From positions 1 to 50,588 of the forward strand of contig JBGPMB010000003.1 of assembly GCA_041486775.1 (NCBI GenBank): a DNA stretch of 50,588 nucleotides, given 5' to 3'. Numbering within the stretch: position 1 is the first letter of the stretch; every line of letters starts with the position of its first letter. Source of the DNA: Candidatus Eiseniibacteriota bacterium (GTDB taxonomy: Bacteria; Eisenbacteria; RBG-16-71-46; SZUA-252). A program made the position numbers and the translations under genes. The notes under the pieces are model-generated. The model ran no database searches. It saw nothing but the letters and a program-made list of their open reading frames with translations, and had not been told where the DNA came from. This document shows positions 1,304 to 47,713 of the stretch, piece after piece.

Positions 1304-1320
1304 GGATCTAGGCCTCCCCC

Positions 1321-2936: not shown

Positions 2937-3020
2937 GGACGTTCCTTCCAAGTTGGCCGAATGCCCCGACGACTCCGAGGCACCTGACAAATCCGACTGC
3001 CCCCTGACGAGCCTGACTAA

Positions 3021-4953: not shown

Positions 4954-4982
4954 GGCCGCCTCAGCCGCGCGCGGCCGGGAGG

Positions 4983-17975: not shown

Positions 17976-18004
17976 ACTTTACACGGCGCCGGGACCCACG
18001 TCAA
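17976..18004 (-). promoter_or_regulatory. sigma70-type promoter for ecfT-like-truA-htrA (possibly extending into the pur genes)
   Basis: TTGACG (18004-17999), 17-nt spacer, TAAAGT (17981-17976). Confidence 0.6.
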
Positions 18005-31594: not shown

Positions 31595-32289
31595 CGGGAT
31601 TCCCCGCCGGGAAGGAGCTCGCGCGGGTCGAGCGGCTGGGTGCGGACGCCCCGGGGGAGGCTCAGGACGAGATCGTGCGGGTCCGCCTTCGGGAGGATCG
31701 TGATCGAGCGGAATTCGACCTCAACCGAGTCCTCGTCTCCTCCGGCGCTCACCCATCGCGGAAGTCCGGTCGTGGGATCCGCCGCGAGCCACACCGACAT
31801 GTTCGGAAGCGAATCGCCGAGGGAGGCGCGGTGCAGGCGATAACCGTCGCGCCATACGCCCGCCTTACGCCTCCGCTCCCGCACCGCTTGATAGTCCGCG
31901 TCGAGCAGCTTCTCGGGTGTGAGGACGAGCTGACGCATCCGGGCGGGCGCGCGCTCCCACTCCGCCCGATAGAGGACGCCCTCCGTGGGACGGTAGACGA
32001 GGAAGGCTCCCTTCTCGCGGTCCACGACGATGTCCTCGCCGCCGCTCTCCTCGGAGCGGAACCGAAGCCCGCGCCCGGGCAGAAACCAGATCCGCCCCGC
32101 CGTGCGCTCCCCCGGTCCGCCGAAGGGATCGCTCCGCGTGATGAACACGCGCGAGCGGGACTCGGGAGCGCGGAGAAGACGCGCCAGCATGCTCTCGACC
32201 TCTTCCCGAGGCGAGGCCTGCTGGGAATGCACCGCCCCGAGTGAGAGCGCCGCCAGGAACGCCGGGACCCACAACCGCGCCACGTTCAT
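31591..32289 (-). CDS. LolA-like periplasmic lipoprotein carrier
   Basis: Signal peptide; GRIWFLPGRGLRF..DIVVD....LVYRP beta-strand pattern typical of LolA-fold proteins; C-terminal LPRGV. ATG 32289 overlaps the upstream stop (ATGA). Confidence 0.6.
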   Translation of the reverse strand: MNVARLWVPAFLAALSLGAVHSQQASPREEVESMLARLLRAPESRSRVFITRSDPFGGPGERTAGRIWFLPGRGLRFRSEESGGEDIVVDREKGAFLVYRPTEGVLYRAEWERAPARMRQLVLTPEKLLDADYQAVRERRRKAGVWRDGYRLHRASLGDSLPNMSVWLAADPTTGLPRWVSAGGDEDSVEVEFRSITILPKADPHDLVLSLPRGVRTQPLDPRELLPGGESR

Positions 32290-33158
32290 GGTTCCGTTCC
32301 CCCTTCCGAAAGGCCCAGAAGCCAGCGCACGAAGGACCGGCCGTCCTGCTCGTCGAGCGGGAGGATCGTCCATCCGGGCTCGGTCTTCGTGCCATAGCGG
32401 ATCTTGGCCGCATCGGCCGGCGCGTGATCCTCGATCTTCAGCCTCACCACGCTGCCAGAGAACGACCACTCGATCCAGCTTGGAATGCGCCCCGCGGCAT
32501 AGTTTCGCTCGGGACCATAGCGCACCTCGATCAGGTCGCGCGCCTCCCCCTCCCGCCGAAGCGCCAAGGATCGGGGCTCGCCGCGAGGAGAGAGCTCGAA
32601 CCTGAAGCGATCCGCACCGAGCGATCCTTCGAGCTGCCACCCACCGGCGGATTCCCGCGCGGCCGCGCGCTCGAGCGCGTGGCGCACCCACGCCGCGCTG
32701 AAATCCCAGGGCGCGCCGATGAAGCGCAGGAGCCTGCCATCGATCCCCTCTTCCCCCGAGAGGGTGCCCGCGGCCCCGATTTCGGTGCGGCGAAGCACCA
32801 GAAAGAGGGAATCTCCCTGGAGGGAGGCGTCGAGGACACGCGCGGGGCCCACGTAGGCAACGAGGGCCATGCTCTCGGCGGCCGCACCCCATCGCACCCG
32901 GGCGCTGCCCCGCCCCTCGCTTCCCCTCCGGACCGAGATCGATCCCACCCCGCGCGTCGCCCCGTGCGGCTCGGCGTAGGCGGCGAGAAAGCGGTCGCGG
33001 GCCGCCGTCCCCGAGCTCGCCTTGGGGATCCGCGCGCATCCTCCGTGGAGCAGGACGAGGGCGGCCGCGGCCAGGAGCGCTGCCGGGCGCCACGCGGGCG
33101 CTTGCGCCGAGCGCCGAAAGCGGGCACGCTCCGGAGCGTGGCCAAGAACGCCGTGCAT
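32286..33158 (-). CDS. Predicted lipoprotein, possible LolB/DUF4292-like fold
   Basis: Hydrophobic stretch ending LLHGG-C (lipobox-like); about 250 aa beta-rich mature part; translationally coupled to the LolA-like gene. Confidence 0.5.
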   Translation of the reverse strand: MHGVLGHAPERARFRRSAQAPAWRPAALLAAAALVLLHGGCARIPKASSGTAARDRFLAAYAEPHGATRGVGSISVRRGSEGRGSARVRWGAAAESMALVAYVGPARVLDASLQGDSLFLVLRRTEIGAAGTLSGEEGIDGRLLRFIGAPWDFSAAWVRHALERAAARESAGGWQLEGSLGADRFRFELSPRGEPRSLALRREGEARDLIEVRYGPERNYAAGRIPSWIEWSFSGSVVRLKIEDHAPADAAKIRYGTKTEPGWTILPLDEQDGRSFVRWLLGLSEGGTEP

Positions 33159-33893
33159 GAAGAGCTTCGGGTGTGGAGCCCCGCGAAGGGATCCCTGCCC
33201 TCCAAGGCATGGTTCGGCGTTCCGACACGCCGGGGAGGCGTGAGCCGCGGGGCGTATGCCTCGCTCAATCTCGGGCTCGGGGTCGGAGACGAGAAGGAAG
33301 ACGTGCTCCAGAACCAATCCATCCTCTTCCGCGCGCTCGGCATCTCCGAGACGGGACCGCTCCGCGTCCGGCAAGTTCACGGCACCCGCGTCGTGACCCC
33401 GAGGGAGGCGTCGTCCGACGCGGACGGCTTTCTCCTCGAGGCCGGCGACCCCTGGACCGCAATCTCCGTCGCCGACTGCGCCCCGGTCTTCCTCGTCGCG
33501 AAGGACGGCTCGCGCGCCGCCCTCCTCCACTCGGGCTGGCGGGGCGCCCGCGGCGGGATCGCTCCCCGCGTGGCCCGCCTCCTGGCCGAGCGCGGAGTGC
33601 CCGCGTCCGAGATCCTGGTCTCGATCGGTCCCTGCATCCATGCGTGTTGTTACCCCGTCGGTCCGGAAGTGGCTCGCGAGTTTCCGGGGGAAGCGCTGAA
33701 GCCCCACCCCGACGGGGTCGCGCTCGATCTGCCGCGCGCGATCACGCTCTCGCTGCTCGAGGCCGGGGTCGGCGAATCCGCCGTGCAGAAAGCGCCGGAG
33801 TGTACTTCGTGCCAGGCTGCTTCCTTCTACTCGCACCGCCGCGATCGAGGAGTCACGGGCCGCCATTGGGCGCTCGCCCGCCTCGCACCGTGA
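33153..33893 (+). CDS. pgeF: PgeF/YfiH-family purine nucleoside phosphorylase / peptidoglycan editing factor
   Basis: TRRGGVS..YASLNLG, QVHG, VADCAPV, HSGWRG, IGPCI..CY.VG, CT.C..FYSHRR. Start GTG 33153 or 33171. Confidence 0.9.
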   Translation: MHEELRVWSPAKGSLPSKAWFGVPTRRGGVSRGAYASLNLGLGVGDEKEDVLQNQSILFRALGISETGPLRVRQVHGTRVVTPREASSDADGFLLEAGDPWTAISVADCAPVFLVAKDGSRAALLHSGWRGARGGIAPRVARLLAERGVPASEILVSIGPCIHACCYPVGPEVAREFPGEALKPHPDGVALDLPRAITLSLLEAGVGESAVQKAPECTSCQAASFYSHRRDRGVTGRHWALARLAP

Positions 33894-34439: not shown

Positions 34440-37400
34440 TCAGAAGTCCGCGCCGAGCGTCACGAAATGGTGCGAGGAGCCCGTGGGGTGCTGGAAGTTG
34501 GTGCCGCGTCCGAAATCGTACCGAAGGATGAAATAGCCGAGATTGATGCGCGCCCCCGCGCCGTAGGCGAAGAGCAGATCGTTCGAGTGGAGTCCCCCGA
34601 CGCTCGAGAAGAAGCGGGGCGTGGTGCCCTTCTGCCATGCGCTCGCCGCGTCCATGAAGAACACGCCGTTGATGCCGCCCAAGGAAATGCGCCCCGGCCA
34701 CCCGAAGCGAAGCTGCTCGATGAGGGGGAAGCGGAACTCGAGATTGCTCAAGAGCGCGTTCGAGCCGGTGAGGTCGCCGTAGTCCACGCCGCGGAACGTG
34801 AACGCGCCGCCGAACCGGAACAGGCGCGGATCCCGCCCGAAGCTGGTGCCGCCGATGACGCGCTGCGCGAAGGCGTAGTTGTGGTGGATGTTGCTGTAGC
34901 GCCGCCAGTCCATCAGGAGCGTCGTGTAGGACACGTCCCCGAAGGCGTGCTCCGCGGTGTAGCTCGACCGGCCGCCGTTGACCGGCCCGGTCGACCCATA
35001 GAGCGCGTTATCGGCGACCAGCCCGACGTTGGGCGCGGCATAGAGATAGGTCTTGTCGGCGACCTGCCGGGAGATGGTCCCCAGATCGTAATTGTAGAGA
35101 AGCACGCCCTTGTCCAGCGCCGCGGCTTCCACCCCGTATTCGATTCGCCGGAAGCGGCTGAAGGGACGGGACATCAGGAATGCCCCGCCGCGATAGATCT
35201 GGCTTTCCACCTGATCGGTGCTCGGGGAGCTGAGCAGGAGCAGGTCGGCCCGGTACTGGTACGCGGCCACGGTGTAGTTCGTGCGGTGCGCCAGGTTCGA
35301 ATAGGCGAGGAAGATGTCCGAGTTCGCGATGTCACCGAAGAGATTGAGGGAGACCAGGATGTTGTGGTTCCCCAGCACGTCGCTGAACGACATCACCGAC
35401 GACCCGGCGAATCCGATGTTCGAGGCGAAGAACGCTCCGCCCGAGACATAGTCCCGCGAGAATCTCGGCCGGTACGGGGCGTGCCGGAAGGTCGTGCTGT
35501 CCACCAACGGCTCGCGATACACCTGCCGCACGTAGAGGGCGAGGGTGGTATCCGGGGCGGCCACGCGCGCGCTGTCGGACCAGGCCCGCATGGAGTCGGA
35601 CGCCAGGCCGCGCGAGCCGATCGTCAGGGCGGATGTCGCTACGGAGTCCCGCGCCGCGTAGCTGGCCGGACTCACCGGGCCCATCGCAGCCGCCGGAGGA
35701 TCGAGCGGCGCGCGCTCGGCGTCGGAAACCTCCTCCGTGACGCCCGCCTGCGCCAGAAGAGGCGCTTCCGCGGGGATCGAGGGTGAGGCCAGCACCGGAG
35801 GCGACGCCAGGAACTTGGGCACGTCGCGGATGGAATAGATGTCCCACCCGCCGCGCGTGAAGGCCGAGAACACCAGCCTCTTTCCGTCGCGCGAGAGCGA
35901 GATGCAGGGGCTCTCCGGGGTGATTCCCGAGACGCCGCAGAGGAGGTTCGAGAGCCGGACCGTCTCACCCGTCACGAGATCCTGACGGAAGATGTTCGGA
36001 ATTCCGAAGCGGTCGGACACGAATACGATCGAGGAGCCCCCGGGTCCCCACTGCGGGGAGATATTCGTCCCGCGCTGATTCGGGAGCACCGTCACGTTTC
36101 CGCTCGCGACGTCGAGAATGGAGATGCTCAGCTTGCCGAAGATGAGCCGCTTCAAGTCGGTGTCCGGGCCCTCGTCGGTGGAGAGCACGATGCGGCTGCC
36201 GTCCGGGGACCAGGAAGGATCCCGCACCGCGTACTTCCCGCCGAAGATCTCGCGTGAATTCTTACCATCCGAGTCGCAGATGTAGAGCTTGGAGTGCCCT
36301 CCCTTGATCCCCACGAAGGCGAGCTCCTTCCCATCGGGCGACCAGGTGGGCGAGTAGATGGCGTCGAGGCCGAACTTGAGCTTCGCCTTCACCTTCCCCG
36401 ACGGGATCTCGATGACGTAGATCGCGTCCTGGCCGCCGATCTTCGCGGGCAGCGCGATCCGGCTCTCGTCCGCGGTCCAGGCGATCGAGGTATTGAAGAA
36501 CCGCAGCGTCTCGAAGCTTCCCGTCCGCTCCCCCTCCACGAGCTTCTTGAAGATCTTCCCATCGAGGGCCGAGGCGAGATACACGTCGTTGTACATGCTC
36601 CGGTCGGAGATGAAGACCATTTGCGTCCCGCTCGGAGAGACCGACGGCGCCACGTTGAAATTCGACATGTCGCGCTGCGCGTCGGTGATGCGCGAAGCGA
36701 TCTGGTCCGGCTTGTCGTGCTCGGCGATCTGCGGCAGGTACTCCTTGCGGACGGCCTCCGTCCATTTCTTCGAGAGCACATCGACCGAGAGGCCGGTCGC
36801 GGAGGCGAGCGCCCGGTCGACGCTTCCCATCCGCCGCGTCCTTTTCAATATTTCGCCGATCTTCTGAATGCCGTAGGTATCGGCGATGAACTGGAAGATG
36901 GACTGACCGAAACGGTAGACACGGATGTCGCCGACATAGTCGAGCACCCGGATCGGAATCAGGTAGCCCTCGAGGGAGGCGTCGCGGAGCCACATCTTGG
37001 TGTTGTTGTCGATCTCGGCGATCGAAAGGTACTCGGCCATACCCTCCATGAACCAGCCCGGAGGCGAGGACGAGAAGGGGTTCCCCACCAGGCTCTGGCG
37101 TTCGCCGAACAGGATGTCGACCTGGAAGGCGTGTACCAGCTCGTGGGTCAGGACGTGGTCCAGCTCCGCGTAGGAGCCGGTGAACGGAAGGAAGACGCGG
37201 CGCTTGAGGAACTCGGTCACGCCCCCGGTGCCCACGCCCAAGAGTTCGGGAGTGATGTTCGTCTGCTCGAAATCCGTGTGCGAGGCGTAGAGGACCAGCG
37301 GGACCTTCGCCTTGATCTGGTGGTCCAGCACGCGGCTCAGCCGGCGGTAGGCGCGCTCGGCCATGACCGCCGCGTCCTGAACCGCTTCCTCTTCACCCGT

Positions 37401-37604
37401 GTAGTAATGGACGTCGAAGTGCTCGGTCTTGAGCACGGACCAGTGAAAGTTCTTGTACTGGACTTTGTTCTGCCCGAAGTACTGGGCGGAGGAAGGCGCG
37501 GGCAGGGCGAGCGCGCCCACCGAGAGCGCCGCGAAGAGCGCCACGCCGGCGGAGCGCGCGCCGAGCGAGCGCGTGGAACTGGGTTCCCTGCTCCAGAACG
37601 TCAT
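34440..37604 (-). CDS. Outer-membrane protein: zinc peptidase (MA/gluzincin-like) + PD40/TolB propeller + Omp85 beta-barrel (paralogue 1)
   Basis: Signal peptide; HELVH..WFMEGMAEY; repeated P.WSPDG..I.F motifs; barrel motifs FRG, EFRFP, FMDAASAW, GAGARINLG..LRYD; C-terminal Phe. Confidence 0.88.
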   Translation of the reverse strand: MTFWSREPSSTRSLGARSAGVALFAALSVGALALPAPSSAQYFGQNKVQYKNFHWSVLKTEHFDVHYYTGEEEAVQDAAVMAERAYRRLSRVLDHQIKAKVPLVLYASHTDFEQTNITPELLGVGTGGVTEFLKRRVFLPFTGSYAELDHVLTHELVHAFQVDILFGERQSLVGNPFSSSPPGWFMEGMAEYLSIAEIDNNTKMWLRDASLEGYLIPIRVLDYVGDIRVYRFGQSIFQFIADTYGIQKIGEILKRTRRMGSVDRALASATGLSVDVLSKKWTEAVRKEYLPQIAEHDKPDQIASRITDAQRDMSNFNVAPSVSPSGTQMVFISDRSMYNDVYLASALDGKIFKKLVEGERTGSFETLRFFNTSIAWTADESRIALPAKIGGQDAIYVIEIPSGKVKAKLKFGLDAIYSPTWSPDGKELAFVGIKGGHSKLYICDSDGKNSREIFGGKYAVRDPSWSPDGSRIVLSTDEGPDTDLKRLIFGKLSISILDVASGNVTVLPNQRGTNISPQWGPGGSSIVFVSDRFGIPNIFRQDLVTGETVRLSNLLCGVSGITPESPCISLSRDGKRLVFSAFTRGGWDIYSIRDVPKFLASPPVLASPSIPAEAPLLAQAGVTEEVSDAERAPLDPPAAAMGPVSPASYAARDSVATSALTIGSRGLASDSMRAWSDSARVAAPDTTLALYVRQVYREPLVDSTTFRHAPYRPRFSRDYVSGGAFFASNIGFAGSSVMSFSDVLGNHNILVSLNLFGDIANSDIFLAYSNLAHRTNYTVAAYQYRADLLLLSSPSTDQVESQIYRGGAFLMSRPFSRFRRIEYGVEAAALDKGVLLYNYDLGTISRQVADKTYLYAAPNVGLVADNALYGSTGPVNGGRSSYTAEHAFGDVSYTTLLMDWRRYSNIHHNYAFAQRVIGGTSFGRDPRLFRFGGAFTFRGVDYGDLTGSNALLSNLEFRFPLIEQLRFGWPGRISLGGINGVFFMDAASAWQKGTTPRFFSSVGGLHSNDLLFAYGAGARINLGYFILRYDFGRGTNFQHPTGSSHHFVTLGADF

Positions 37605-38806
37605 CCGGTCTTCCCTTCCCTAGCTCCGGCGAGCGCGGCCGCTTCCGCGGCCTGGAGCGCGGCCTGGACGGCCTGCGCCGGGATCGCCCCCTGAGCCGAT
37701 TCGGGCCGGCCGCCCCCTTTGCCGCCGAACTCGCGGCAGAGGCCGCTCAGGAGATCGCCTACCGCTATTGTACCCGCTGGCGCGGAAAAGTGCGCCCTCG
37801 GCGTGTCGGTACCCGCGGTGAAGAGGGCGATACCGCCCCGCGCCGCCACGAGTGCCGCCAGTGTTCCGATTTCGGACGGCTCGCGGTCCGGGAAATGGCG
37901 CGCCACCACCGGCCCCAGCTCACCCCGGGGCGCCGATTCGACCAGTACCGCGGCCTCGCGCTCCAGCTCCGCCTTGAGGAGGGTCTTCATCCTGCGATCG
38001 AGACGGTCGCGCTCCTCCTTGAGACGCGCCACAGCCTTCGGGAGATCCAGCTCTCCTGCCGTAAAAGCGAGCGAGAGGTCGCGAAGGAGGAGCATCCGCT
38101 CCCGCTGGCGGCGGAGCGAGCGGCCGCCGCAGACGAACGCGACGCGGGTCCCTCCCTTGTACTTCTCGGTGGAGAGGATGGTGATGATGCCGACCTGGCC
38201 GCTCCGGCTCACGTGGGTCCCGCCGCAGGCCGACCAGTCGAACCCGGTTACCTCCACGACCCGCACGATGCCCTCGACCGCGGGAAGCTTGCGGAGCGGA
38301 AAGCGCCCGACCTCCTCGCGCGGGACCTGGTGCACCACGATCGCCCGGTCCTCCCACACGACTTCATTCGCGCGCTCCTCCACCCGTCGCAGGAGATCCA
38401 GGTCCGGGCCGGGATGAGCCACGTCGATGGAGACTTCCTCCTCGCCGAGGCGGAAGGAGCGAGTCTCCGCCGAGGCGACTTCGAGGAAGGCCTGGGAGAG
38501 GATGTGCTGGCCGGTGTGCTGCTGCATGTGGTCGAAGCGGCGGGTCCAATCGAGAGTCCCCTGGACCCGGGTGCCCGGAGCGAGAGGGCCATCGATCCGG
38601 TGCCAGACGCGCCCCTCCTCCTCGCGAGTGTCGGTCACGGCCACGGGCCCGAGCCGGCCGCGATCGGGAGGCTGCCCTCCCCCACCGGGGTAGAAGGCGG
38701 TCTGGTCGAGCTCGGCCCAGAGCGCGCCGTCCTGCTCGAGGGATTGCAGAACCGTACCGTCGAATTGGCGGATCGAGGAATCTTCGTAGTAGAGAAGCCG
38801 GGTCAA
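37601..38806 (-). CDS. Alanyl-tRNA editing protein AlaX-L with DHHA1/C-Ala domain
   Basis: LDQTAFYPGGGGQP.DRG, HMQQHTGQH, ACGGTHV, GGKGGG. Confidence 0.9.
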   Translation of the reverse strand: MTRLLYYEDSSIRQFDGTVLQSLEQDGALWAELDQTAFYPGGGGQPPDRGRLGPVAVTDTREEEGRVWHRIDGPLAPGTRVQGTLDWTRRFDHMQQHTGQHILSQAFLEVASAETRSFRLGEEEVSIDVAHPGPDLDLLRRVEERANEVVWEDRAIVVHQVPREEVGRFPLRKLPAVEGIVRVVEVTGFDWSACGGTHVSRSGQVGIITILSTEKYKGGTRVAFVCGGRSLRRQRERMLLLRDLSLAFTAGELDLPKAVARLKEERDRLDRRMKTLLKAELEREAAVLVESAPRGELGPVVARHFPDREPSEIGTLAALVAARGGIALFTAGTDTPRAHFSAPAGTIAVGDLLSGLCREFGGKGGGRPESAQGAIPAQAVQAALQAAEAAALAGAREGKTG

Positions 38807-38851
38807 AGTGCGGCGCCTCGGGACGATGTCGGCCGGGAGGGATCGAGGGGA

Positions 38852-38880
38852 ATAGTACCGCCGCGGCGCGCGGTTCGCAA
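38852..38880 (-). promoter_or_regulatory. sigma70-type promoter for alaX-Omp85(1)-PAP2
   Basis: TTGCGA (38880-38875), 17-nt spacer, TACTAT (38857-38852). Confidence 0.55.
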
Positions 38881-38915
38881 CGCCGGGGCGGGATGGTGCC
38901 GCTGTGCCAGCGTCG

Positions 38916-39413
38916 CTAGCGACTCAGCGCGACGTTCCGCTGCTCGATCAAGTCGGCGATCGCCTCGGTCAGCTCGCGAAGCTCCGCCAGGTTCATCTCG
39001 AATTGCTCGTCGTGCTCGTAGGCCTTCTCCAGCTCGTGCACCAGGCTGTGGAGCCGCTCGATTCGCTCCACGATGTCCCGGTCGAGCCGGCCAACCGAAT
39101 GCATCACGTCGTCGGCGTAGGCGCGCTGGGCGTGCTCCACCAGCACGATCGACTCCGCGAGAAACTCCAGCTTGCGCGCGTCTCCGTCCAGCTCCTCCAG
39201 AAGATCGGAGAAGTCGTCACGGAACTGCTTGCTCTCGATCCTCTCCAGCCGGTGCGCCTCGCCGTTCAGGAGCTCGGCAACGCTCGATCGGAACCGCCGG
39301 TCGTCCTCTCGGCGCAGGGAAGGCTCCTGGTAGCCCCGGTAGCCCGGGACGTAACGTGCGATATCGTCGACGACCTCCAGTGTTGCGATCTTTCCCTGAC
39401 GCGTGCGTGGCAT
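38916..39413 (-). CDS. Hypothetical acidic alpha-helical protein, 165 aa
   Basis: Strong RBS GAGGAGG before ATG 39413; host-like codon usage; VPGYRGY..RREDD motif followed by heptad-like helices. Confidence 0.8.
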   Translation of the reverse strand: MPRTRQGKIATLEVVDDIARYVPGYRGYQEPSLRREDDRRFRSSVAELLNGEAHRLERIESKQFRDDFSDLLEELDGDARKLEFLAESIVLVEHAQRAYADDVMHSVGRLDRDIVERIERLHSLVHELEKAYEHDEQFEMNLAELRELTEAIADLIEQRNVALSR

Positions 39414-39428
39414 CCGATGGTCCTCCTC

Positions 39429-39445
39429 GATTGCAGACTGCAATC
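39429..39445. promoter_or_regulatory. Perfect 8-1-8 palindrome GATTGCAG-A-CTGCAATC abutting the RBS of the hypothetical gene
   Basis: Read directly from the sequence. Confidence 0.55.
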
Positions 39446-39482
39446 CCCGCGACCCTAATCTCGATGGCGCAACGTTCCGGCG

Positions 39483-39497
39483 GCAAGTTCCGCGCCG
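39483..39497 (-). promoter_or_regulatory. Candidate sigma54 promoter for the 165-aa hypothetical gene
   Basis: CGGCGCGGAACTTGC: GG-N10-GC with a TTGC -12 element, about 70 bp upstream of the ATG. Confidence 0.4.
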
Positions 39498-39594
39498 AGC
39501 TCGCCACGAACGTCGGGAGCGGTTCTATCTGCTTCCCACGGTCGCGGATCCCGACTTCCCGCGGCCGCGATTACCGGCCGACCACGTGGGATCC

Positions 39595-39624
39595 GTAGCG
39601 GGGAGTTCGCAACTCCCATGCCAC
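39595..39624 (-). other. Stem-loop just after the propeller-lipoprotein stop codon
   Basis: GGGAGTT-cgc-AACTCCC (39601-39617) with an imperfect outer extension; no U-tract. Confidence 0.45.
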
Positions 39625-39641
39625 GCGCCTGCCTCAGGGCG

Positions 39642-40916
39642 TCAGGGAACGGTGACGCGAACGGCGTACGGTGTCTCGAGGAGGGGCGAAGAGCGGAGGG
39701 TGGCACCGGTCGGGCTGATCTCGAGAACGCGATGGGCGCGAAGATCGGCGACCCAGCAGGAGCCCGTGACGGGATCGATGTCGATGCCGTAGGGCTCGAT
39801 GCCGGTGACGGTGGCGAGCGTTACTCCGGCGCGTGTGATGAGGCTGAGGCGTCCGGCCCCGAGATCGGGCACGCCGCGCTCGCTCATCCAGAGATCGCCG
39901 CTTGCGGAATCGACCGCGAGGTCCGCGGCGTTCAGAACCGAGGATCGGATCCGGGTCGCAGAGCTGTCGGCGGGATCGAGATAATAGAGGCTCCCGGTCG
40001 CGGCGCGGGTGGCGACCCAGGCGCCTCCGGTCGCCTCGTCCAGCGCGATCGCTCGGATAGGGTTTCCGTCCAGGGACCAGGTGTGCGTCAGCACGAGATC
40101 CTGCGCGCGATACCGGTACACCTGCCCTTCCTCGTTTCCGATCCACACCGTGGGATCGTTCGTGCCCGCCTCGACGATGCGCGGATCGGGCACGTCGTTG
40201 ATCGACCGCTGGGGCGCGGGATCGTCCACGTTGGGTCCGTACGAGATCACGCTTCCGGACGTGAGGGAGACCACCCATCCGAGGCCGCGGTTGCTCGACA
40301 CCGACAGATCTCCCGGCGCGCCGACGTCGATCTCGGCGCCCACGGTCGCCCCGTCCGGGGTTCTCCGGATCACCCTGCCCGCGTCCTCCGCGGCGAGCCA
40401 GAGGAGCCCGTCCTTTCGATCCAGCTCCATGTCGACGTAGCTCTCGCTGGCGACCCGTTCGTAGAGAACATCGCGTGCATCCGGGCTCAATCGCAGGAAC
40501 GAAGGCGTGCCCGCGGCGAGCACGTAGATCTTTCTCCGGCCCGGGGTCGCGCTGTCCGGAGCGCTGACGACGCTGTCCCCGTTTTCCAGATGCGCGATCA
40601 GCCGGTAGACGTAGGTCGAATCGTTCGCCACGCTCGAGTCTTCCGCCGCGATCGCGTCCGGATTGTAGTCGGCGGTCCCGAGACCCCGCGGCTGACCTCC
40701 CGGGATCCAGCGCTGGACGCGATAGCCCGAGACACCCCGGACCGTGAGCACGGGCCAGCGGAGTTCGACGATATGGTCGGCCGCGATGGCGTTGAAGCCC
40801 ACGAGCGCCCCCTGAGTCTGCTCGTTGCGAGGATCCAGCGGATTCGAGCGATCCCGGGTGGTGCAGCCTCCGAGGCAGATCGCCGCGAGAATCAGGAGGC
40901 GCGCGGCACGGATCAC
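39642..40916 (-). CDS. Lipoprotein with FN3-like domain and NHL/Vgb-like beta-propeller
   Basis: GTG 40916 (GTGA overlap); lipobox LGG-C then RSNPLDP; VELRW..GYRVQR..YVYRL (FN3-like); repeated P..I..D...G..WV blades. Confidence 0.8.
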   Translation of the reverse strand: MIRAARLLILAAICLGGCTTRDRSNPLDPRNEQTQGALVGFNAIAADHIVELRWPVLTVRGVSGYRVQRWIPGGQPRGLGTADYNPDAIAAEDSSVANDSTYVYRLIAHLENGDSVVSAPDSATPGRRKIYVLAAGTPSFLRLSPDARDVLYERVASESYVDMELDRKDGLLWLAAEDAGRVIRRTPDGATVGAEIDVGAPGDLSVSSNRGLGWVVSLTSGSVISYGPNVDDPAPQRSINDVPDPRIVEAGTNDPTVWIGNEEGQVYRYRAQDLVLTHTWSLDGNPIRAIALDEATGGAWVATRAATGSLYYLDPADSSATRIRSSVLNAADLAVDSASGDLWMSERGVPDLGAGRLSLITRAGVTLATVTGIEPYGIDIDPVTGSCWVADLRAHRVLEISPTGATLRSSPLLETPYAVRVTVP

Positions 40917-41755
40917 CGGCCGGAGCCGTTCACGAGAAGCACGAGCCCGCCGGTGAAGAACGCCTGCCCCACGCCCAGCGAGGCGAGCGAGAGGTGGTCG
41001 TAGCGGACCGCGCGATCGAAGTAGGTGTCGAGCACGCGGCGGTCCGAGGATTCGAGGTAACGGTTGTACCACCGGTCGCCGTCTCGGCGGAAAACCGCCG
41101 CGGCTCCGGTGAGCGTGGCCCCGATCCCCACGAGGCTCCACTGGAGCCACCGCTTGCGGAGGAGCGGCGTCTTCCGCGGAGCGGGAGGGAGGGTCTCGGC
41201 GATCCGGCGCAAGGAGACCGCGACCCGTCCGCCCGATTCATCCAGCGCGAGCAGCGACTGGCCGGCGAGCACGCTGTCGGCGTGATCCAGCGCCTCGAGC
41301 CGGAAGCGATTCCCTTCGAGAAACGCCGAGCGGAGCGAGAGCGGCGTCTCGCCGAGCAACGAGTCCTTCGCCGTACCGGTGACCCGGTAGACGCGGGCGG
41401 GCTCGGGAATCGTCCGGAGCATCACGCTGGGTCTCAGATCGAGGAAGACTCGGGTCACGACCCCCGGCTGAAGCAGCGCCGACGCCTCGTCGGAGACCGA
41501 ATCGAACCGACGCGGATCGTCGCGGAGTGCCCGGACGCGCACCGTCTTCGCGGGAATCCAGATGGGGCCCAGCGGCGAGCGCCCCGCCTCCACCTGGTCG
41601 ATGAGGATGAGGAGTCCCGGCGGGGAGGTCTCGACGACCAGCCCTCCCGCCAGGGAATCGGGCGGGACGAGATCGCGCTGGAGATAAGAGCCGGCGAGAA
41701 GGTGGGACGGGGACGCGAAAAGGGCCGCGGCCGCCAGAGCGACCGCGTAGCAGAC
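40913..41755 (-). CDS. PEGA-domain exported protein with C-terminal hydrophobic hairpin (start uncertain; first canonical start is 41593)
   Basis: Upstream of GTG 41593 the frame encodes a signal-like VCYAVALAAAALFA and the PEGA start GLVVETSPPGLLILID..GRSPL; second repeat LRTIPEPARVY..LGETPL; two C-terminal TM segments. Confidence 0.7.
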   Translation of the reverse strand, partial: VCYAVALAAAALFASPSHLLAGSYLQRDLVPPDSLAGGLVVETSPPGLLILIDQVEAGRSPLGPIWIPAKTVRVRALRDDPRRFDSVSDEASALLQPGVVTRVFLDLRPSVMLRTIPEPARVYRVTGTAKDSLLGETPLSLRSAFLEGNRFRLEALDHADSVLAGQSLLALDESGGRVAVSLRRIAETLPPAPRKTPLLRKRWLQWSLVGIGATLTGAAAVFRRDGDRWYNRYLESSDRRVLDTYFDRAVRYDHLSLASLGVGQAFFTGGLVLLVNGSGR

Positions 41756-41783
41756 CTGGCGTGCCCCGTCTCCGAGACGAGAA

Positions 41784-44579
41784 CTAGTAGTCGAAACCCA
41801 CGTAGAATTCGCGCTCCCAACCCGGCTTGACTCTCTGGAAATCCGTTTGACGAGCCAGATCGTAGCGCAATACGAAGTATCCGCCCAGGCTCATCCGGAG
41901 CCCGAGCCCGAAGCTTCCCAGGGGCCGGGGGAATCTCTCGAACTTCTCCCAGGCGTTCCCCGCGTCCGCGAAGACCGCCCCTTCGATTCCGGGCAGCTCG
42001 AGGGTCCCGGGGCCCAGGACCAGCCGGTCGAAGAGCGGGAATCGGTATTCCGCATTCGCGAGGTACATCCGGGTTCCGAAGATGCTGCGCCGGCCGTAGC
42101 CGCGCAGCGAGTAGGAGCCGCCCAGCGCGAACCGTTCCGGATCCGCTCCCGAGCTCACGCGCGTCTGGACCCGCAGCGCCACCGTCGTCCACTGGCTCAT
42201 GCGCAGATAACGCCTCACGTCGGCGCTGGCCATGACGTCCTCGGTGTGCCCGTTGTTCCAGTTGGTCGTGAGCGCGGTGGTCAGATTGTAGCGCCCGCCG
42301 TCGCGGGGGCCGGTCGGGAACCAGAGCGTGTTGTCCCGGATGAGCGAGATCGAGTGCGTCGTCAGGAATCCGCGCCGCGAGGTGCCGAAATCGCGGACCT
42401 TCTCGTCGTAGTACGCCTGGGCGGTCCCTTCGATGCGGCTGAAGCGCGAGAAGGGATAGCTCGCGAGCAACGAAGCCCCGGCCCGGCGCTCGAAGAATTG
42501 ATCTCCGATCGCGTCCTGATAATCCGCCGCCGTGTGAAAGGCCCCGACTCCGAAATTCCACCGGTGCTGGAGATTGATGAACCACGCCCCCCCGTTCATC
42601 CGCGAGAGGATCTCGTTCGTCGACTGGGCCGTGTTGCCGAGCTGGAAGTAGAAGAGCCTGTTTCCGAGCAGATCGCTGACGGCGCCCTGGAGACCCTCGC
42701 CCACGTTCTCCGTCGGGTCGACCCCGAGTCCGCCCTGCACCAGATCCAGCCCGTACCGCGGCTCGTAGGGCGCCGGAGTCTGGGTCGAGCGCGCCAGGGT
42801 GTCGTCCCAGCGCCACGGCGCGGGCGTGTCGGTCAGCGCGAGCGCGAAGGGATCCACGAGGGTGTCGGGCACGGCCATCTGGTAGATCCCGAACCCTCCG
42901 CGGCGGAAGCCCGTGAAGAGGACTCCCTTGCCGTTCGGAAGCCACGAGGGGTCCAGCGCCGAACCCAGGAGCCGTTTGAACCGGCCGCCCTGGCCGTTGA
43001 CGTCCACCGCGTAGAGGTCGTACGAGCCGTCCCGATCCGAGGCGAACGCGATCCGGCTCCCGTCGGGAGACCAGCTCGGCGTCTGGTCGGTCCAGGCGCC
43101 GCAGGTGAGGTAGCGGATGGAGAGCGTCCCGACGTCGATCAGGAAGAGATTCTGGTGTCCTTCCGAGCCGTATCGCGTCCGGTCCGAGGCGAAGGCGATC
43201 TGCTTGCCGTCGGGCGACCACGTCGGATCCAGGTCCGTATAGAAATCGTTCGTGAGCCGGGTCAGGCCCTTCGTCTCCCGGTCGAAGACATAGAGATCCA
43301 TCTGCCCCGACGGCTTGAGACCGGCGATCGCGATCTTCGTCCCCTCGCGATTCCACGCGGGCGAGGAGAGCGCGATCAGATTGTCCAGGTATTCGCGGAT
43401 CAGAACCTTCTTCGTGGCGACGTCGTAGATGAAGAGCGCGTCCCGCTCGTTCCACTTGGAGACGAACGCCAGCTCTCCCTTCTTGGAAATGTCGATCCGG
43501 CTCTGGAACGGATGGAAGGACTCGAACTGCGCCGCGCGCTGTCCGCGCACCACCGAGTGGACGTCCTGCTCGCGCCCGCGCCAGGACGCGCTGTAGATAT
43601 TGGTGTATCCGCTGCGCGCGGAGATGAAGAAGTAGCGGCAGCCGCCGAGCTGCAGCGTGTCGGGCGCCGCGACGGGCTTCAGATTCACACCCTCCGACGT
43701 CGCGCGCTCCTCGCCGGCCAGCCCGAGCGTCATGCGGTCCTTCACCTCGGGGAAGTACTTCCGCTTGAGCCCGTAGATCCAGTCCTCGGAGATGCGGCGG
43801 GTCGAAGCGCCCGTCACCCGCTGCATCACCTTCTCGAAGCGGTCGTCCTTGTAGATCTCCGTGTAGAAGCGGCGCAGGGCGTCATCGCCGTACGTCCGGC
43901 CGATGTACTCGCAGAGACTCTGCCCCAATTTGTAGACCGTGAACGTGCCGTTGTAGCGCCACAGGTCCGAGATCGCGGGAAGACGATCCTCGAGCACCAT
44001 GTCGCTCACCACCATCGTCCCCTGAGCGTCCCACTGGGTGGACCAGTACTCCGCGAGTCCCTCCGAGAACCAGAGGGGCGGCACCACGTACTGGGCCTTG
44101 CGGTGCTTCTTGTAGACCTCTTCCAGGATGGAGAGCTGGAACACGTGGACCAGCTCGTGGTGGATCACGTGGCGGAATTCGGCGTAGGAGCCCGTGTACG
44201 GAAGCACCACGCGCCCCTTCGCGAACTCGGTGAATCCCTGCACGCCCTCGGGCAGGAAATAGGGGCTGACGTTCGTCTGCTCGAAATGCTGGTGCGAGGA
44301 ATAGACGATGAGGGGGATGGACTTCGTGACCTCGTGCTGGAATTTCCCCTTGAGGTCCTGGTAGCTGTCTTCGGCGAGCGAAAGCGCGAGCCGGGCCAGC
44401 GGCTCTTCCTCGGGATAGTAGAAGATCTCGACGTGGTCCCCGCGGAGCGTCTGCCATTGAAACGTGTTGTAGTGCACCTTGTTCTTTCCGAACGCGAAGG
44501 ATTGGGCGTGGGAAAGGGACGGGGCGCAGACCAACGACGCGACCGCGAACAGACCGACGAGGAGCTTCATCTTCTTCAT
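41784..44579 (-). CDS. Outer-membrane protein: zinc peptidase + PD40/TolB propeller + Omp85 beta-barrel (paralogue 2)
   Basis: MKKMKLL signal peptide; FGKNKVHY; HELVH..WFSEGLAEY; PTWSPDG/PSWSPDG repeats; LRGY, EYRFP, FADAGNAW, GLGLR..LRYD; ends GFDY. Confidence 0.88.
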   Translation of the reverse strand: MKKMKLLVGLFAVASLVCAPSLSHAQSFAFGKNKVHYNTFQWQTLRGDHVEIFYYPEEEPLARLALSLAEDSYQDLKGKFQHEVTKSIPLIVYSSHQHFEQTNVSPYFLPEGVQGFTEFAKGRVVLPYTGSYAEFRHVIHHELVHVFQLSILEEVYKKHRKAQYVVPPLWFSEGLAEYWSTQWDAQGTMVVSDMVLEDRLPAISDLWRYNGTFTVYKLGQSLCEYIGRTYGDDALRRFYTEIYKDDRFEKVMQRVTGASTRRISEDWIYGLKRKYFPEVKDRMTLGLAGEERATSEGVNLKPVAAPDTLQLGGCRYFFISARSGYTNIYSASWRGREQDVHSVVRGQRAAQFESFHPFQSRIDISKKGELAFVSKWNERDALFIYDVATKKVLIREYLDNLIALSSPAWNREGTKIAIAGLKPSGQMDLYVFDRETKGLTRLTNDFYTDLDPTWSPDGKQIAFASDRTRYGSEGHQNLFLIDVGTLSIRYLTCGAWTDQTPSWSPDGSRIAFASDRDGSYDLYAVDVNGQGGRFKRLLGSALDPSWLPNGKGVLFTGFRRGGFGIYQMAVPDTLVDPFALALTDTPAPWRWDDTLARSTQTPAPYEPRYGLDLVQGGLGVDPTENVGEGLQGAVSDLLGNRLFYFQLGNTAQSTNEILSRMNGGAWFINLQHRWNFGVGAFHTAADYQDAIGDQFFERRAGASLLASYPFSRFSRIEGTAQAYYDEKVRDFGTSRRGFLTTHSISLIRDNTLWFPTGPRDGGRYNLTTALTTNWNNGHTEDVMASADVRRYLRMSQWTTVALRVQTRVSSGADPERFALGGSYSLRGYGRRSIFGTRMYLANAEYRFPLFDRLVLGPGTLELPGIEGAVFADAGNAWEKFERFPRPLGSFGLGLRMSLGGYFVLRYDLARQTDFQRVKPGWEREFYVGFDY

Positions 44580-46615: not shown

Positions 46616-47656
46616 TTATCGCGCCGCTTGCGCCGCGTCCCGGCCACCGGCCCGCCCTCCCCGACGTTCTTCGAGCGCCCGGTCGATCCTGTCCGCGGTG
46701 CGCTCCCACGAGAATTCCCGAATCTTCGCCAGGCCCTGCGCCGCGAGCGCCCGCCGCAGCTCGGGATCCCGGAGCAAGGGCGTGATCGCCCGCGACAGAG
46801 CCCACGACCAGCGCCAGCGAGTCACCGCCGCGGTGACACCGTCGATCGCGAAGTCCTCGGTGCCGCTCCGTGTGCACACCACCGCGGTTCCGCTGGCCAT
46901 GGCTTCCGCCGCGGTGTTGCACCAGCCCGCTCGCCGCTCCGCGCTCACGAAGAGATCTGACCCGCGGTAGAGCTCCGCCAAGTCCTGTTGCGTCGGGTTC
47001 AGGACCCACCGATGCGGGATCGAGAGCGACCGCGGGAGAGCCGGGGCCTCGCCGTCGGGCGGCGCGTCGAAAAGGGTGAGCGAGACCGGAACGCCGGTCG
47101 CGACGGCGGCGCGCTCGAGCGCGCGAACGGCGACCCACGTCCCCTTGCGGCGGCGCGAGAGCCGGCCATACACGAGCGCCCGCACCGGGGCGCCCGGCTC
47201 GGCACCCGTGGCCCGCGGATCCGGCGCCGGCGGACGAAACCACGCCACGTTCACGCCCCCCGCCGCATCCACCGCCGAGACGCCTTTCCGCGCGAGATAC
47301 CGGCGCATCCCCGCTGAATTCGCGAGCACGAGGTCCGCCTCGTGGAGCGCCTGCTTCTCCCCGGGGGCCTTTTCCAGGACGGAATAGTAGACGCGCAGGG
47401 CGCCGGGCGCGCGGCAGCCCAGAAAGAGATCCGGATCGGGCGAGATCACCACGTCCCACCCTCCGAGCGGCAGCTCCGCCATCGGGAGAATCGCCCCCGA
47501 GAAGGCCACCCAGGGTCGCGCGCCGGAGCGATCGGGAACGAAGATCGCCACCTCGTGTCCGCGCCGGGTCCAGACCTCCCCCAGCTCCAGAAAGCGGCGG
47601 ATTCCCCCGTACACGCCGAGGTGCGGAAGGACGATTGCGACGCGTCGGAGAGCCAT
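46616..47656 (-). CDS. Glycosyltransferase family 4 (GT-B)
   Basis: YGGIRR, RGHEV, ANS, RKG, LYRGSDLFV, EAMASG..VV, FSWE. Confidence 0.88.
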   Translation of the reverse strand: MALRRVAIVLPHLGVYGGIRRFLELGEVWTRRGHEVAIFVPDRSGARPWVAFSGAILPMAELPLGGWDVVISPDPDLFLGCRAPGALRVYYSVLEKAPGEKQALHEADLVLANSAGMRRYLARKGVSAVDAAGGVNVAWFRPPAPDPRATGAEPGAPVRALVYGRLSRRRKGTWVAVRALERAAVATGVPVSLTLFDAPPDGEAPALPRSLSIPHRWVLNPTQQDLAELYRGSDLFVSAERRAGWCNTAAEAMASGTAVVCTRSGTEDFAIDGVTAAVTRWRWSWALSRAITPLLRDPELRRALAAQGLAKIREFSWERTADRIDRALEERRGGRAGGRDAAQAAR

Positions 47657-47675
47657 CGGATCGCGGAGTTTACAT

Positions 47676-47705
47676 TTGCCCTAAGCGGACCGGGTGCACT
47701 AAATT
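47676..47705 (+). promoter_or_regulatory. sigma70-type promoter for the M42 operon (possibly leaderless)
   Basis: TTGCCC (47676-47681), 18-nt spacer, TAAATT (47700-47705); the ATG follows 8 nt later. Confidence 0.4.
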
Positions 47706-47713
47706 GCGGAGCT

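What the first reader, a model, noticed from the sequence alone, without database searches (positions are those of the whole stretch)
34440..44579. Two paralogous zinc-peptidase / PD40-propeller / POTRA-less Omp85 fusion proteins, a candidate uncharacterised outer-membrane protease-translocon system
Seen: two ORFs (1054 aa and 931 aa) about 4 kb apart share one architecture. It runs signal peptide, FG.NKV.Y start, intact gluzincin-type site (HELVH plus W..EG.AEY third ligand), several PD40 repeats, then an Omp85-like barrel with the loop-6 RG motif (FRGV / LRGY) and a terminal aromatic residue. I see no POTRA domains. Established: BamA works with a separate propeller (BamB) and a separate zinc protease/chaperone (BepA), and a WD40/PD40-Omp85 subfamily is catalogued without an assigned function. 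Inference: each protein may combine substrate capture, proteolysis and insertion or translocation in one chain, or be a self-exported protease. Retention of two diverged, intact copies suggests a heteromer or split substrate sets.
Basis: partly seen in the sequence, partly recalled or inferred. Interest (0 to 1): 0.85.

Follow-up and report, generated by a model that had tools for sequence, protein, structure and literature searches.

The report
Zinc-peptidase, propeller, Omp85-barrel fusion pair
Two diverged copies of an outer-membrane protein that joins a zinc protease and a TolB-like propeller to a BamA-type barrel are really there; the family is already catalogued, has no known function, and is found in every sampled genome of two soil phyla.

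Summary
Gene A (34440-37604, minus strand, 1054 aa) and gene B (41784-44579, minus strand, 931 aa) are paralogues at 33-34% identity. Each has a signal peptide and an intact HExxH...E gluzincin domain whose nearest fold is the M9 collagenase catalytic domain. Next come a six-bladed TolB-like propeller and a 16-strand Omp85 barrel that keeps the loop-6 RG motif. There is no POTRA domain. The genome separately encodes a 5-POTRA BamA, a 3-POTRA TamA-like protein and a BepA-like M48 peptidase.

This is the "WD40-Omp85" subfamily catalogued in 2014 and still called uncharacterised in 2024. New here:
- The family is in 61 of 61 sampled genomes of the window's phylum and 51 of 51 Gemmatimonadota, usually as 2-3 genes.
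- A and B belong to two old clades.
- B-type genes often sit next to a BamB-like gene in several phyla.

My best reading (0.5) is an outer-membrane-anchored, periplasm-facing zinc peptidase with a housekeeping role in the cell envelope. Self-export and a true translocon are less likely, and nothing supports a heteromer. These are new members of a known but unstudied kind. Interest is moderate.

The parts
34440..37604 (-). Gene A, 1054 aa: peptidase, propeller and Omp85 fusion (A-type clade). Its start overlaps the stop of the upstream AlaX-like gene by 4 bases.
37485..37604 (-). A residues 1-40: N-terminal signal-peptide-like region that ends ...SSA|QYFGQNKV. The cleavage site is inferred by eye.
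   Evidence: alignment
36705..37484 (-). A residues 41-300: gluzincin peptidase domain. HELVH is at 37131-37145 and WFMEGMAEY at 37029-37055.
35820..36704 (-). A residues 301-595: PD40/TolB-like propeller.
35490..35819 (-). A residues 596-705: Pro/Ala/Ser-rich insert between propeller and barrel. It is absent from B and from most relatives. It was not modelled and has no POTRA match.
34443..35489 (-). A residues 706-1054: Omp85-type barrel. FRGV is at 34785-34796, FMDAA at 34644-34658, and the last residue is F.
41784..44579 (-). Gene B, 931 aa: peptidase, propeller and Omp85 fusion (B-type clade).
44505..44579 (-). B residues 1-25: Sec-type signal peptide that ends ...SHA|QSFAFGKNKV. The cleavage site is inferred by eye.
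43725..44504 (-). B residues 26-285: gluzincin peptidase domain. HELVH is at 44145-44159 and WFSEGLAEY at 44046-44072. A conserved but poorly modelled loop lies at residues 96-122.
42840..43724 (-). B residues 286-580: six-bladed TolB-like propeller, with 25 strands in the model.
42756..42839 (-). B residues 581-608: short linker. It is too short for a POTRA domain.
41787..42755 (-). B residues 609-931: 16-strand Omp85 barrel. LRGY is at 42096-42107, FADAG at 41958-41972, and the last residue is Y.
39642..40918 (-). Predicted lipoprotein (lipobox LGGC, GTG start) with repeat features of a propeller and no known family. It recurs downstream of B-type genes in 11 of 78 related loci. Whether it belongs to the system is open.
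40913..41593 (-). 226-aa protein of unknown family between B and the lipoprotein. It is conserved only in the four closest loci.

Best explanation
A and B are outer-membrane proteins. Each is anchored by a 16-strand Omp85 barrel that BAM inserts through the terminal aromatic beta-signal. The barrel holds a catalytically competent zinc gluzincin and a six-bladed TolB-like propeller on the periplasmic face. I read the propeller as a filter or dock that admits unfolded chains or peptides to the active site, as propellers do in S9 and tricorn peptidases. The barrel serves at least as the anchor and may also dock substrates. The job would be housekeeping proteolysis in the envelope: quality control or maturation of outer-membrane proteins or lipoproteins. 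The two old paralogues would take different substrates or partners.

Shown: the architecture, the intact catalytic motifs, the Omp85 hallmarks, the absence of POTRA, the universality of the family, the two clades and the gene neighbours. Inferred: the periplasmic side, catalytic activity, the role of the propeller and the kind of substrate.
For: Fold of the peptidase domain:
- The model of B residues 38-292 has pLDDT 86.6 and pTM 0.85.
- It matches the Grimontia M9 collagenase catalytic domain at Z 16.4, rmsd 3.2 over 220 residues. It matches M30 lugdulysin at Z 16.3 and M1 aminopeptidases at Z 12-13.5.
- The top Foldseek hits are ColT, ColG and ColH peptidase domains.
- A family profile aligns HExxH and WxEGxAEY to Vibrio-type collagenases at E 2e-4.
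- H141, E142, H145 and E173 of B are invariant in 28 of 28 aligned members.

Barrel and propeller:
- The full-length B model has pLDDT 81 and pTM 0.76 and shows 16 strands. The RGY motif lies between strands 11 and 12 and FxDxG lies on strand 13.
- Foldseek matches the TamA barrel (TMt 0.70), the BamA barrel (TMt 0.58) and TolB (E 3e-11).

Topology:
- Ten strands precede strand 11, so strand 1 starts from the periplasm as in BamA.
- PlpD's enzyme domain is periplasmic (PMC11116518 abstract).

Housekeeping role:
- The family is in 61 of 61 genomes of the window's phylum. By my hand count of the place list, 51 genomes have two genes, 4 have three and 6 have one.
- It is in 51 of 51 Gemmatimonadota genomes.

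Gene neighbours of B-type genes:
- A BamB-like PQQ_2 gene lies next to the gene in 14-15 of 67 loci that have downstream sequence, across five named phyla.
- In Gemmatimonadota the gene is flanked by LptE (34 loci), a HEAT-cyclophilin gene (36) and a lipoprotein gene (26).
Against: - Nothing here measures topology, zinc binding or activity.
- The barrel keeps the lid-lock motifs and a weakly modelled strand 1, which fits a working lateral gate rather than a passive anchor.
- PQQ_2 is a broad family and the BamB model scores stay below its cut-off (109-149 bits against 285).
- The window's own genome has no PQQ_2 gene above cut-off, and its LptE is on another contig.
- The Gemmatimonadota synteny lies within one phylum and also includes unrelated housekeeping genes.
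- The genome already has BepA-like and HtrA-like proteases, so no quality-control gap needs filling.
- A-type loci show no recurring envelope neighbour.
- The nearest folds are secreted collagenases.
Confidence: 0.5

Rival explanations
1. BAM-like machine with a built-in protease, which is the reader's 'protease-translocon'. The barrel's lateral gate captures beta-signals and inserts or translocates clients. The propeller stands in for POTRA and BamB. The peptidase edits or destroys stalled clients in cis.
For: The barrel keeps the LRGY/FRGV and FxDxG hallmarks and a terminal aromatic residue. Strand 1 and the loop after it are poorly modelled, as a mobile gate would be. BamB-like genes lie beside B-type genes in several phyla. 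Heinz and Lithgow proposed a BamA-BamB-like fusion (PMC4104836 section 10).
Against: Canonical 5-POTRA BamA and 3-POTRA TamA-like genes are present. There is no POTRA to hand over clients. No client is known. The barrel scores weakly against the Omp85 and BamA models (35 and 24.7 bits against PF01103; 30.9 bits against TIGR03303, whose cut-off is 297).
Confidence: 0.15
2. Self-exported or surface-displayed protease. The barrel carries the N-terminal peptidase and propeller to the cell surface, where they digest external protein for food.
For: The nearest folds are secreted M9 and M30 peptidases. PlpD was originally thought to work this way (PMC4104836 section 10).
Against: PlpD's domain proved to be periplasmic (PMC11116518 abstract). 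About 580 residues that include a folded propeller would have to cross a barrel whose lumen-closing loop-6 lock is conserved. Strand parity puts the N-terminus in the periplasm. A copy number of 2-3 in every genome of two phyla is more typical of a core function than of a feeding enzyme.
Confidence: 0.12
3. A and B form an obligate heteromer.
For: By my count, 55 of 61 genomes of the phylum hold at least two genes. In the window's own family, A and B lie 4.2-4.35 kb apart on one strand in 11 of 14 genomes. PlpD is a homodimer (PMC11116518 abstract).
Against: Outside that family the two genes are on other contigs or hundreds of kb apart. Six of 61 genomes show one gene only. The two types have different neighbours. 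No interface was tested, because the pair exceeds the size limit of the complex tool.
Confidence: 0.12
4. The peptidase domain is a non-catalytic binding module, and the protein is a structural tether in the manner of TolB.
For: The propeller is TolB-like. Pfam peptidase models score below their cut-offs.
Against: The HExxH motif and the Glu ligand are invariant across the family, together with a nearby Tyr and the residues of a conserved loop. Such conservation is expected of an active site. A separate TolB-like gene exists (C15, 462-aa frame).
Confidence: 0.05

Closest known systems
WD40-Omp85 subfamily of the Omp85/TpsB superfamily (Heinz and Lithgow 2014, PMC4104836)
   Same: An N-terminal TolB-like propeller precedes an Omp85 barrel, there is no POTRA, and the function is unknown. 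A and B fit this description.
   Different: The main text I read does not mention a HExxH domain. A 2024 paper summarises the group as having 'divergent WD40 and peptidase domains' (PMC11358297 passage). The 2014 paper took the non-BamA/TamA/Lipo subfamilies to be conserved only at genus level and spread by transfer (passage). Here the family is in every sampled genome of two phyla. Its Tables S2 and S3 could not be read.
PlpD, patatin-like Omp85 of Pseudomonas aeruginosa (Hanson et al. 2024, PMC11116518)
   Same: An Omp85 barrel carries an N-terminal enzyme domain. It sets the precedent that such a domain stays in the periplasm and that the Omp85 scaffold was reused for other functions.
   Different: PlpD has a lipase domain and one POTRA, and it is a homodimer. 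Here there is a zinc peptidase plus a propeller and no POTRA. The oligomeric state is unknown.
BepA working with BamA and BamB of E. coli (PMC8423444, abstract seen in listing)
   Same: A periplasmic zinc HExxH protease acts at an Omp85 machine that has a propeller partner. The roles may be analogous.
   Different: BepA is M48 with TPR repeats and is a separate soluble protein. Here the fold is M9/M1-like, the parts are fused, and the genome also has its own BepA-like gene.
M9 microbial collagenase catalytic domain (7wss, 4ar8, 2y3u)
   Same: It gives the best fold match. It shares the HExxH motif and a Glu ligand in a WxEGxAEY-type motif, 28-29 residues after the second His.
   Different: Sequence identity is 10-16%. 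Pfam Peptidase_M9 scores below its cut-off (17.4 and 11 bits against 26). There is no activator or collagen-binding domain. Nothing suggests collagen is the substrate.
TolB and propeller-gated peptidases (S9, tricorn)
   Same: The propeller is a six-bladed PD40 type. Precomputed Pfam on relatives lists Tricorn_N and DPPIV_N.
   Different: The TolB equivalog model scores well below its cut-off (155 and 129 bits against 343). TolB's N-terminal domain was not identified, and there is no serine peptidase domain.

Membership tests
Omp85 superfamily | Barrel domain matches PF01103 above the gathering score | tested here: met
   B scores 35.0 bits against a cut-off of 24 and 39.5 bits in the genome scan. 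A scores 24.7 bits, just over the cut-off.
Omp85 superfamily | 16-stranded barrel with the BamA/TamA fold | tested here: met
   The B model has 16 strands between residues 609 and 928. Foldseek gives the TamA barrel 8us4 TMt 0.70 and the BamA barrel 7nre TMt 0.58. A was not modelled. It is 34% identical to B's barrel at E 4e-37.
Omp85 superfamily | Loop-6 (L/M)RG(W/Y) and strand-13 FxDxG lid-lock motifs, as named in PMC11358297 | tested here: met
   B has LRGY at 825-828 and FADAG at 870-874. A has FRGV at 937-940 and FMDAA at 983-987, where the last Gly is Ala. R826 and D872 are invariant in 28 sequences.
Omp85 superfamily (canonical definition) | [quoted passage not shown] | tested here: not met
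   No POTRA family matches either protein at E <= 1. The linker in the B model is only 28 residues. The same scan finds 5 and 3 POTRA domains in the genome's BamA and TamA-like proteins.
WD40-Omp85 subfamily (Heinz and Lithgow 2014) | N-terminal TolB-like propeller followed by an Omp85 barrel, without POTRA | tested here: met
   The description comes from PMC4104836 section 10.
Gluzincin metallopeptidases (clan MA) | HExxH motif plus a downstream Glu as third zinc ligand | tested here: met
   B has H141, E142, H145 and E173. A has H154, E155, H158 and E187. These residues are invariant in the alignments. That the Glu is a zinc ligand is inferred from its alignment to collagenases.
Gluzincin metallopeptidases (clan MA) | Thermolysin-like catalytic fold | tested here: met
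   The top 13 rows of the wide structure search are all zinc peptidases, at Z 12-16.4. Thermolysin scores Z 9.2.
Gluzincin metallopeptidases (clan MA) | Zinc-dependent peptidase activity | not testable with these tools
   This needs a biochemical assay.
Peptidase family M9 (collagenase) | Match to PF01752 above the cut-off | tested here: not met
   A scores 17.4 bits and B 11.0 bits against a cut-off of 26.
Pfam Peptidase_MA_2 (PF13485) | Match above the cut-off | tested here: not met
   A scores 21.3 bits and B 18.2 bits against a cut-off of 32.4. Some relatives carry PF13485 in precomputed Pfam, and 47% of one Atlas cluster does.
BepA (M48 beta-barrel assembly-enhancing protease) | M48 catalytic domain plus TPR domain | tested here: not met
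   Neither protein shows an M48 or TPR match. A separate 503-aa BepA-like gene lies on contig C24.
BamA | TIGR03303 equivalog score and five POTRA domains | tested here: not met
   B scores 30.9 bits against a cut-off of 297, and A is not listed. The true BamA is on contig C39.
TolB | TIGR02800 equivalog score | tested here: not met
   The scores are 154.6 and 128.7 bits against a cut-off of 343. Only the propeller matches.

The most novel reading that the evidence does not exclude
The family is a third working branch of the Omp85 superfamily beside BamA and TamA. It would be a POTRA-less disposal or editing machine in which the Omp85 lateral gate captures the beta-signal of failed or surplus outer-membrane proteins. 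The fused propeller-gated zinc peptidase then cuts them in cis. It would be core equipment of Gemmatimonadota, Eisenbacteria and their relatives, would work with a BamB-like lipoprotein, and would be split early into two specialised paralogues.
Probability: 0.18. Interest if true: 0.8.

Novelty: new member of a known kind. Interest (0 to 1): 0.55.

Why it matters
Every Omp85 protein studied until recently either inserts or translocates proteins. PlpD showed that the scaffold can do other things. A 2024 paper named the WD40-like and metalloprotease subfamilies as uncharacterised targets (PMC11116518 introduction).

This report adds that the WD40-type subfamily carries an intact gluzincin. It also shows that the family is universal in the two large soil phyla sampled, comes as old paralogue pairs and often lies beside a BamB-like gene. 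That makes it a reasonable candidate for a missing piece of envelope biology in poorly studied diderm lineages.

The report also suggests where to test the idea. Cultivable Gemmatimonadota, Ignavibacteria and Calditrichia may carry orthologues, though all the loci found here are from MAGs. If the barrel proves to be only an anchor, the protein is still a useful second example of Omp85 reuse.

Tried and rejected
- Complex prediction. I tested B residues 36-600 against the conserved neighbouring lipoprotein (39645-40865). The verdict was no support, with scores 0.00 and 0.00 and no controls folded. This says nothing either way about binding.
- RNA evidence. No RNA run was listed for 34600-44579.
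- Profile against solved structures. A profile of the whole family finds only TolB-type propellers and weak barrel hits, with nothing for the N-terminal domain. The domain-only profile was needed.
- 'The fusion replaces BepA'. Rejected, because a BepA-like M48 gene is present.
- 'The 226-aa gene after B matches the lipoprotein after B-type genes in Gemmatimonadota'. Rejected, at BLASTP E 0.031.
- The intervening and flanking genes of unknown function (32286-33866, 38916-39443, 39642-40920, 40913-41593) have no Pfam family above cut-off. NCBIfam was also run on the last two and found none.
- I could not inspect the geometry between active site and propeller, because model coordinates are not exposed.
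- I did not search for shorter forms that lack the barrel, so I make no claim about them.
- Six literature searches found no functional study of this architecture. Subscription journals and the supplements of PMC4104836 (Tables S2 and S3) were not visible and may list the peptidase domain.
Full report
**What is there**

The window has 65-72% G+C and nearly all of its genes lie on the minus strand. Gene A is 34440-37604 (1054 aa) and gene B is 41784-44579 (931 aa). The longer ATG frame listed for B, which runs to 45326, adds an Arg/Pro-rich stretch that no relative shares. I therefore take the MKKMKLL start.

A and B are 33% identical over about 600 N-terminal residues (E 2e-88) and 34% identical over 346 C-terminal residues (E 4e-37).

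**Domains**

Pfam gives the following:
- PD40 repeats in both proteins.
- Omp85 PF01103 in B, at 35 bits against a cut-off of 24.
- Only sub-threshold hits to peptidase families. Peptidase_MA_2 scores 21.3 and 18.2 bits against 32.4. Peptidase_M9 scores 17.4 and 11 bits against 26. BSP is just over its cut-off in A.
- No POTRA family at E <= 1.

NCBIfam shows TolB-propeller similarity (155 and 129 bits, below the 343 cut-off) and weak Omp85, TamL and BamA hits in both C-termini. A's barrel reaches PF01103 at 24.7 bits in a genome scan.

**Models**

The full-length B model was built on 28 family members. It has mean pLDDT 81.2 and pTM 0.76 and shows:
- an alpha/beta peptidase domain;
- 25 strands between residues 290 and 579, which make six four-stranded blades plus a closing strand;
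- a 28-residue linker;
- 16 strands between residues 609 and 928.

LRGY (825-828) lies in the long loop between strands 11 and 12. FADAG (870-874) lies on strand 13. These are the positions of the Omp85 lid-lock motifs as PMC11358297 describes them. Foldseek matches TolB (E 3e-11), the TamA barrel (8us4, TMt 0.70, rmsd 5.5 over 358 columns) and BamA barrels (7nre TMt 0.58; 8xnb; 9ccg).

The N-terminal domain was modelled alone (residues 38-292, 41 sequences) and has pLDDT 86.6 and pTM 0.85. An all-against-representatives structure search puts zinc peptidases in the top 13 rows:
- Grimontia M9 collagenase, Z 16.4, rmsd 3.2 over 220 residues;
- M30 lugdulysin, Z 16.3;
- ColT, Z 13.8;
- M1 aminopeptidases, Z 12-13.5;
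- thermolysin lower down, Z 9.2.

Foldseek agrees. A sequence profile of the domain aligns HExxH and WxEGxAEY with Vibrio-type collagenases at E 2e-4.

In B the Glu lies 28 residues after the second His. In A it lies 29 residues after. H141, E142, H145 and E173 are invariant in 28 of 28 sequences, along with W170, G174, A176 and Y216. A loop at residues 96-122, just before the catalytic helix, is strongly conserved but poorly modelled. It may be a substrate flap, which is my inference.

**Rest of the genome**

The assembly is 2.9 Mb in 286 contigs and 93% complete. It also encodes:
- an 801-aa BamA with five POTRA domains (contig C39) and a 658-aa TamA-like protein with three (C6);
- further short Omp85 hits on C1 and C104;
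- a BepA-like M48 protein (C24);
- an HtrA-like protease inside the window (15219-16559);
- a TPR-flanked protein with the same HExxH...W.SEG motif on C257.

A and B therefore come in addition to the standard machinery.

**Spread of the family**

- B has more than 3313 relatives among 8000 scored candidates. Sources name them 'BamA/TamA family outer membrane protein', 'PD40 domain-containing protein' or 'Tol biopolymer transport system component'.
- With A as query, 1735 cluster representatives at 50% identity score E <= 1e-30, and the best 150 all score E <= 1.4e-124.
The best 80 are labelled Candidatus Eisenbacteria, Gemmatimonadota (the majority), Zixibacteria, Latescibacterota, Ignavibacteria, Calditrichia, WOR-3, Glassbacteria, Cytophagia and others.
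- In the window's own phylum, 61 of 61 sampled genomes have the family at E <= 1e-30. One of these, G015, is unpublished. My hand count of the place list gives 51 genomes with two genes, 4 with three and 6 with one.
- In Gemmatimonadota, 51 of 51 genomes match the N-terminal domain profile at E <= 1e-40. There are 1, 2 or 3 matches in 8, 29 and 14 genomes, and a few of these are fragments at contig ends.
- Five genomes from five lineages each hold two to four strong copies.

**Two clades**

I built a FastTree from 81 rows and 911 columns.
- A falls in a clade of 14 rows with support 1.0. Its members are from Eisenbacteria, Zixibacteria, Calditrichota, a Cytophagia MAG, Moduliflexota and a Spirochaetota MAG.
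- B falls among 64 rows from Eisenbacteria, Gemmatimonadota (46), Zixibacteria, Ignavibacteriota and Glassbacteria.
- Three rows (L043, L050, L065) form a third small group.
- Eisenbacteria and Zixibacteria appear on both sides, so the split is older than these phyla or was spread by transfer.
- The tree is unrooted in effect, because I rooted it at the midpoint. The locus sample was chosen with B as query, so A-types are under-sampled.

In the window's own family, B and A lie 4.2-4.35 kb apart on one strand in 11 of 14 genomes. In other families they are on other contigs or hundreds of kb apart.

**Neighbours**

In the window the order on the minus strand is:
1. B;
2. a 226-aa gene of unknown family;
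3. a predicted lipoprotein (lipobox LGGC);
4. a 175-aa gene of unknown family;
5. an AlaX-like gene;
6. A, whose start overlaps the AlaX-like stop by 4 bases.

I compared 78 related loci.
- A PQQ_2 gene lies directly after the B-type gene in 14-15 of the 67 loci that have at least 1.5 kb downstream. Its best NCBIfam hit is BamB, at E 1e-31 to 1e-44 and below the cut-off.
- By phylum label this is Eisenbacteria 2 of 9, Zixibacteria 2 of 3, Ignavibacteriota 2 of 2, Latescibacterota 2 of 2, Gemmatimonadota 5 of 47 (four of them convergent) and unlabelled 2 of 6.
- The lipoprotein of the window recurs in 11 loci.
- In Gemmatimonadota the gene is flanked by a HEAT-cyclophilin gene (36 loci), a lipoprotein gene of about 240 aa (26) and LptE (34). 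That block also holds unrelated housekeeping genes.
- A-type loci share no recurring neighbour.
- The window's own genome has no PQQ_2 gene above cut-off, and its LptE is elsewhere.

**Reading**

With ten strands before strand 11 in the model, strand 1 begins on the periplasmic side, as in BamA. This rests on established Omp85 topology. The peptidase and propeller are therefore periplasmic unless they are exported.

PlpD is the only studied Omp85 with an enzyme domain. It was thought to export that domain, but the domain is periplasmic (PMC11116518 abstract). Presence in every sampled genome at a near-constant copy number, together with the envelope-biogenesis neighbours, points to a core envelope function rather than a feeding enzyme.

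I therefore favour an outer-membrane-anchored periplasmic zinc peptidase gated by its propeller (0.5). The conserved barrel hallmarks keep open the bolder reading, in which the barrel captures beta-signals and the peptidase acts on the captured chain (0.15-0.18). Self-export (0.12), an obligate A-B heteromer (0.12) and a non-catalytic tether (0.05) are less likely.

**Known or new**

The architecture is the 'WD40-Omp85' subfamily of Heinz and Lithgow 2014 (PMC4104836 section 10, read in full). That paper discussed it as a BamA-BamB-like fusion and assigned no function.
- A 2024 paper summarises it as having 'divergent WD40 and peptidase domains' (PMC11358297, passage).
- Another 2024 paper lists the WD40-like subfamily among those 'not well characterized' (PMC11116518, passage).
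- Six full-text searches found no functional study.

A and B are therefore new members of a known but unstudied kind. The additions here are:
- the fold-level assignment of the peptidase domain;
- the universality of the family in two phyla, where the 2014 view was genus-level conservation and transfer (passage);
- the two old clades;
- the link to BamB-like genes.

**Verdict**

Interest is 0.55.

Noticed in passing
window 39642-40918 (-): A predicted lipoprotein (lipobox LGGC) with a conserved R..NP.DP motif after the lipidated Cys and propeller-like repeats. It matches no Pfam or NCBIfam family. It recurs 1.3-1.8 kb downstream of B-type genes in Eisenbacteria, Latescibacterota and one Gemmatimonadota MAG.
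   Followed up: partly
own genome contig C257 (L018:1077-2822, -): A 581-aa protein, cut by the contig end, has TPR-like repeats on both sides of a domain with the same HExxH...W.SEG motif as A and B (28% identity to B residues 39-276). It is a soluble, BepA-like arrangement of the same peptidase type.
   Followed up: partly
window 37601-38806 (-): An AlaX-like gene (tRNA_SAD plus DHHA1) whose stop overlaps the start of gene A by 4 bases. The pairing is kept in the three closest loci that also hold A. A functional link looks unlikely.
   Followed up: no
window 2-3020 (-): A ClpC-like ATPase, an ATP:guanido phosphotransferase (McsB-like) and a UVR-motif protein (McsA-like) lie in a row. From memory, this protein-arginine-kinase module is best known from Firmicutes.
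   Followed up: no
window 3021-4992, 15219-16559, 18001-19617 (-): Other envelope genes lie in the window: a LolCDE-like ABC pair (ABC_tran plus FtsX/MacB_PCD), an HtrA-like protease (Trypsin_2 plus PDZ) and an apolipoprotein N-acyltransferase (Lnt).
   Followed up: no
window 47342-49884 (+): Two M42-family aminopeptidase genes lie in tandem with overlapping frames. The pair is conserved in the closest loci.
   Followed up: no
L021 and L029: Records labelled Limnocylindrales (Chloroflexota) and Bacteroidota carry the same gene order as the window at about 70% protein identity. In the tree they fall among Eisenbacteria. The labels are probably binning or naming errors.
   Followed up: partly
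L038:7860-9932 and relatives (36 Gemmatimonadota loci): A 690-aa fusion of HEAT repeats with a cyclophilin-type prolyl isomerase lies directly upstream of the B-type gene. Downstream lie a lipoprotein of unknown family and LptE.
   Followed up: partly
own genome contigs C1 (two places) and C104: Three further short Omp85 matches lie in open frames of about 190-460 aa. They may be Omp85 proteins that lack an N-terminal domain.
   Followed up: no
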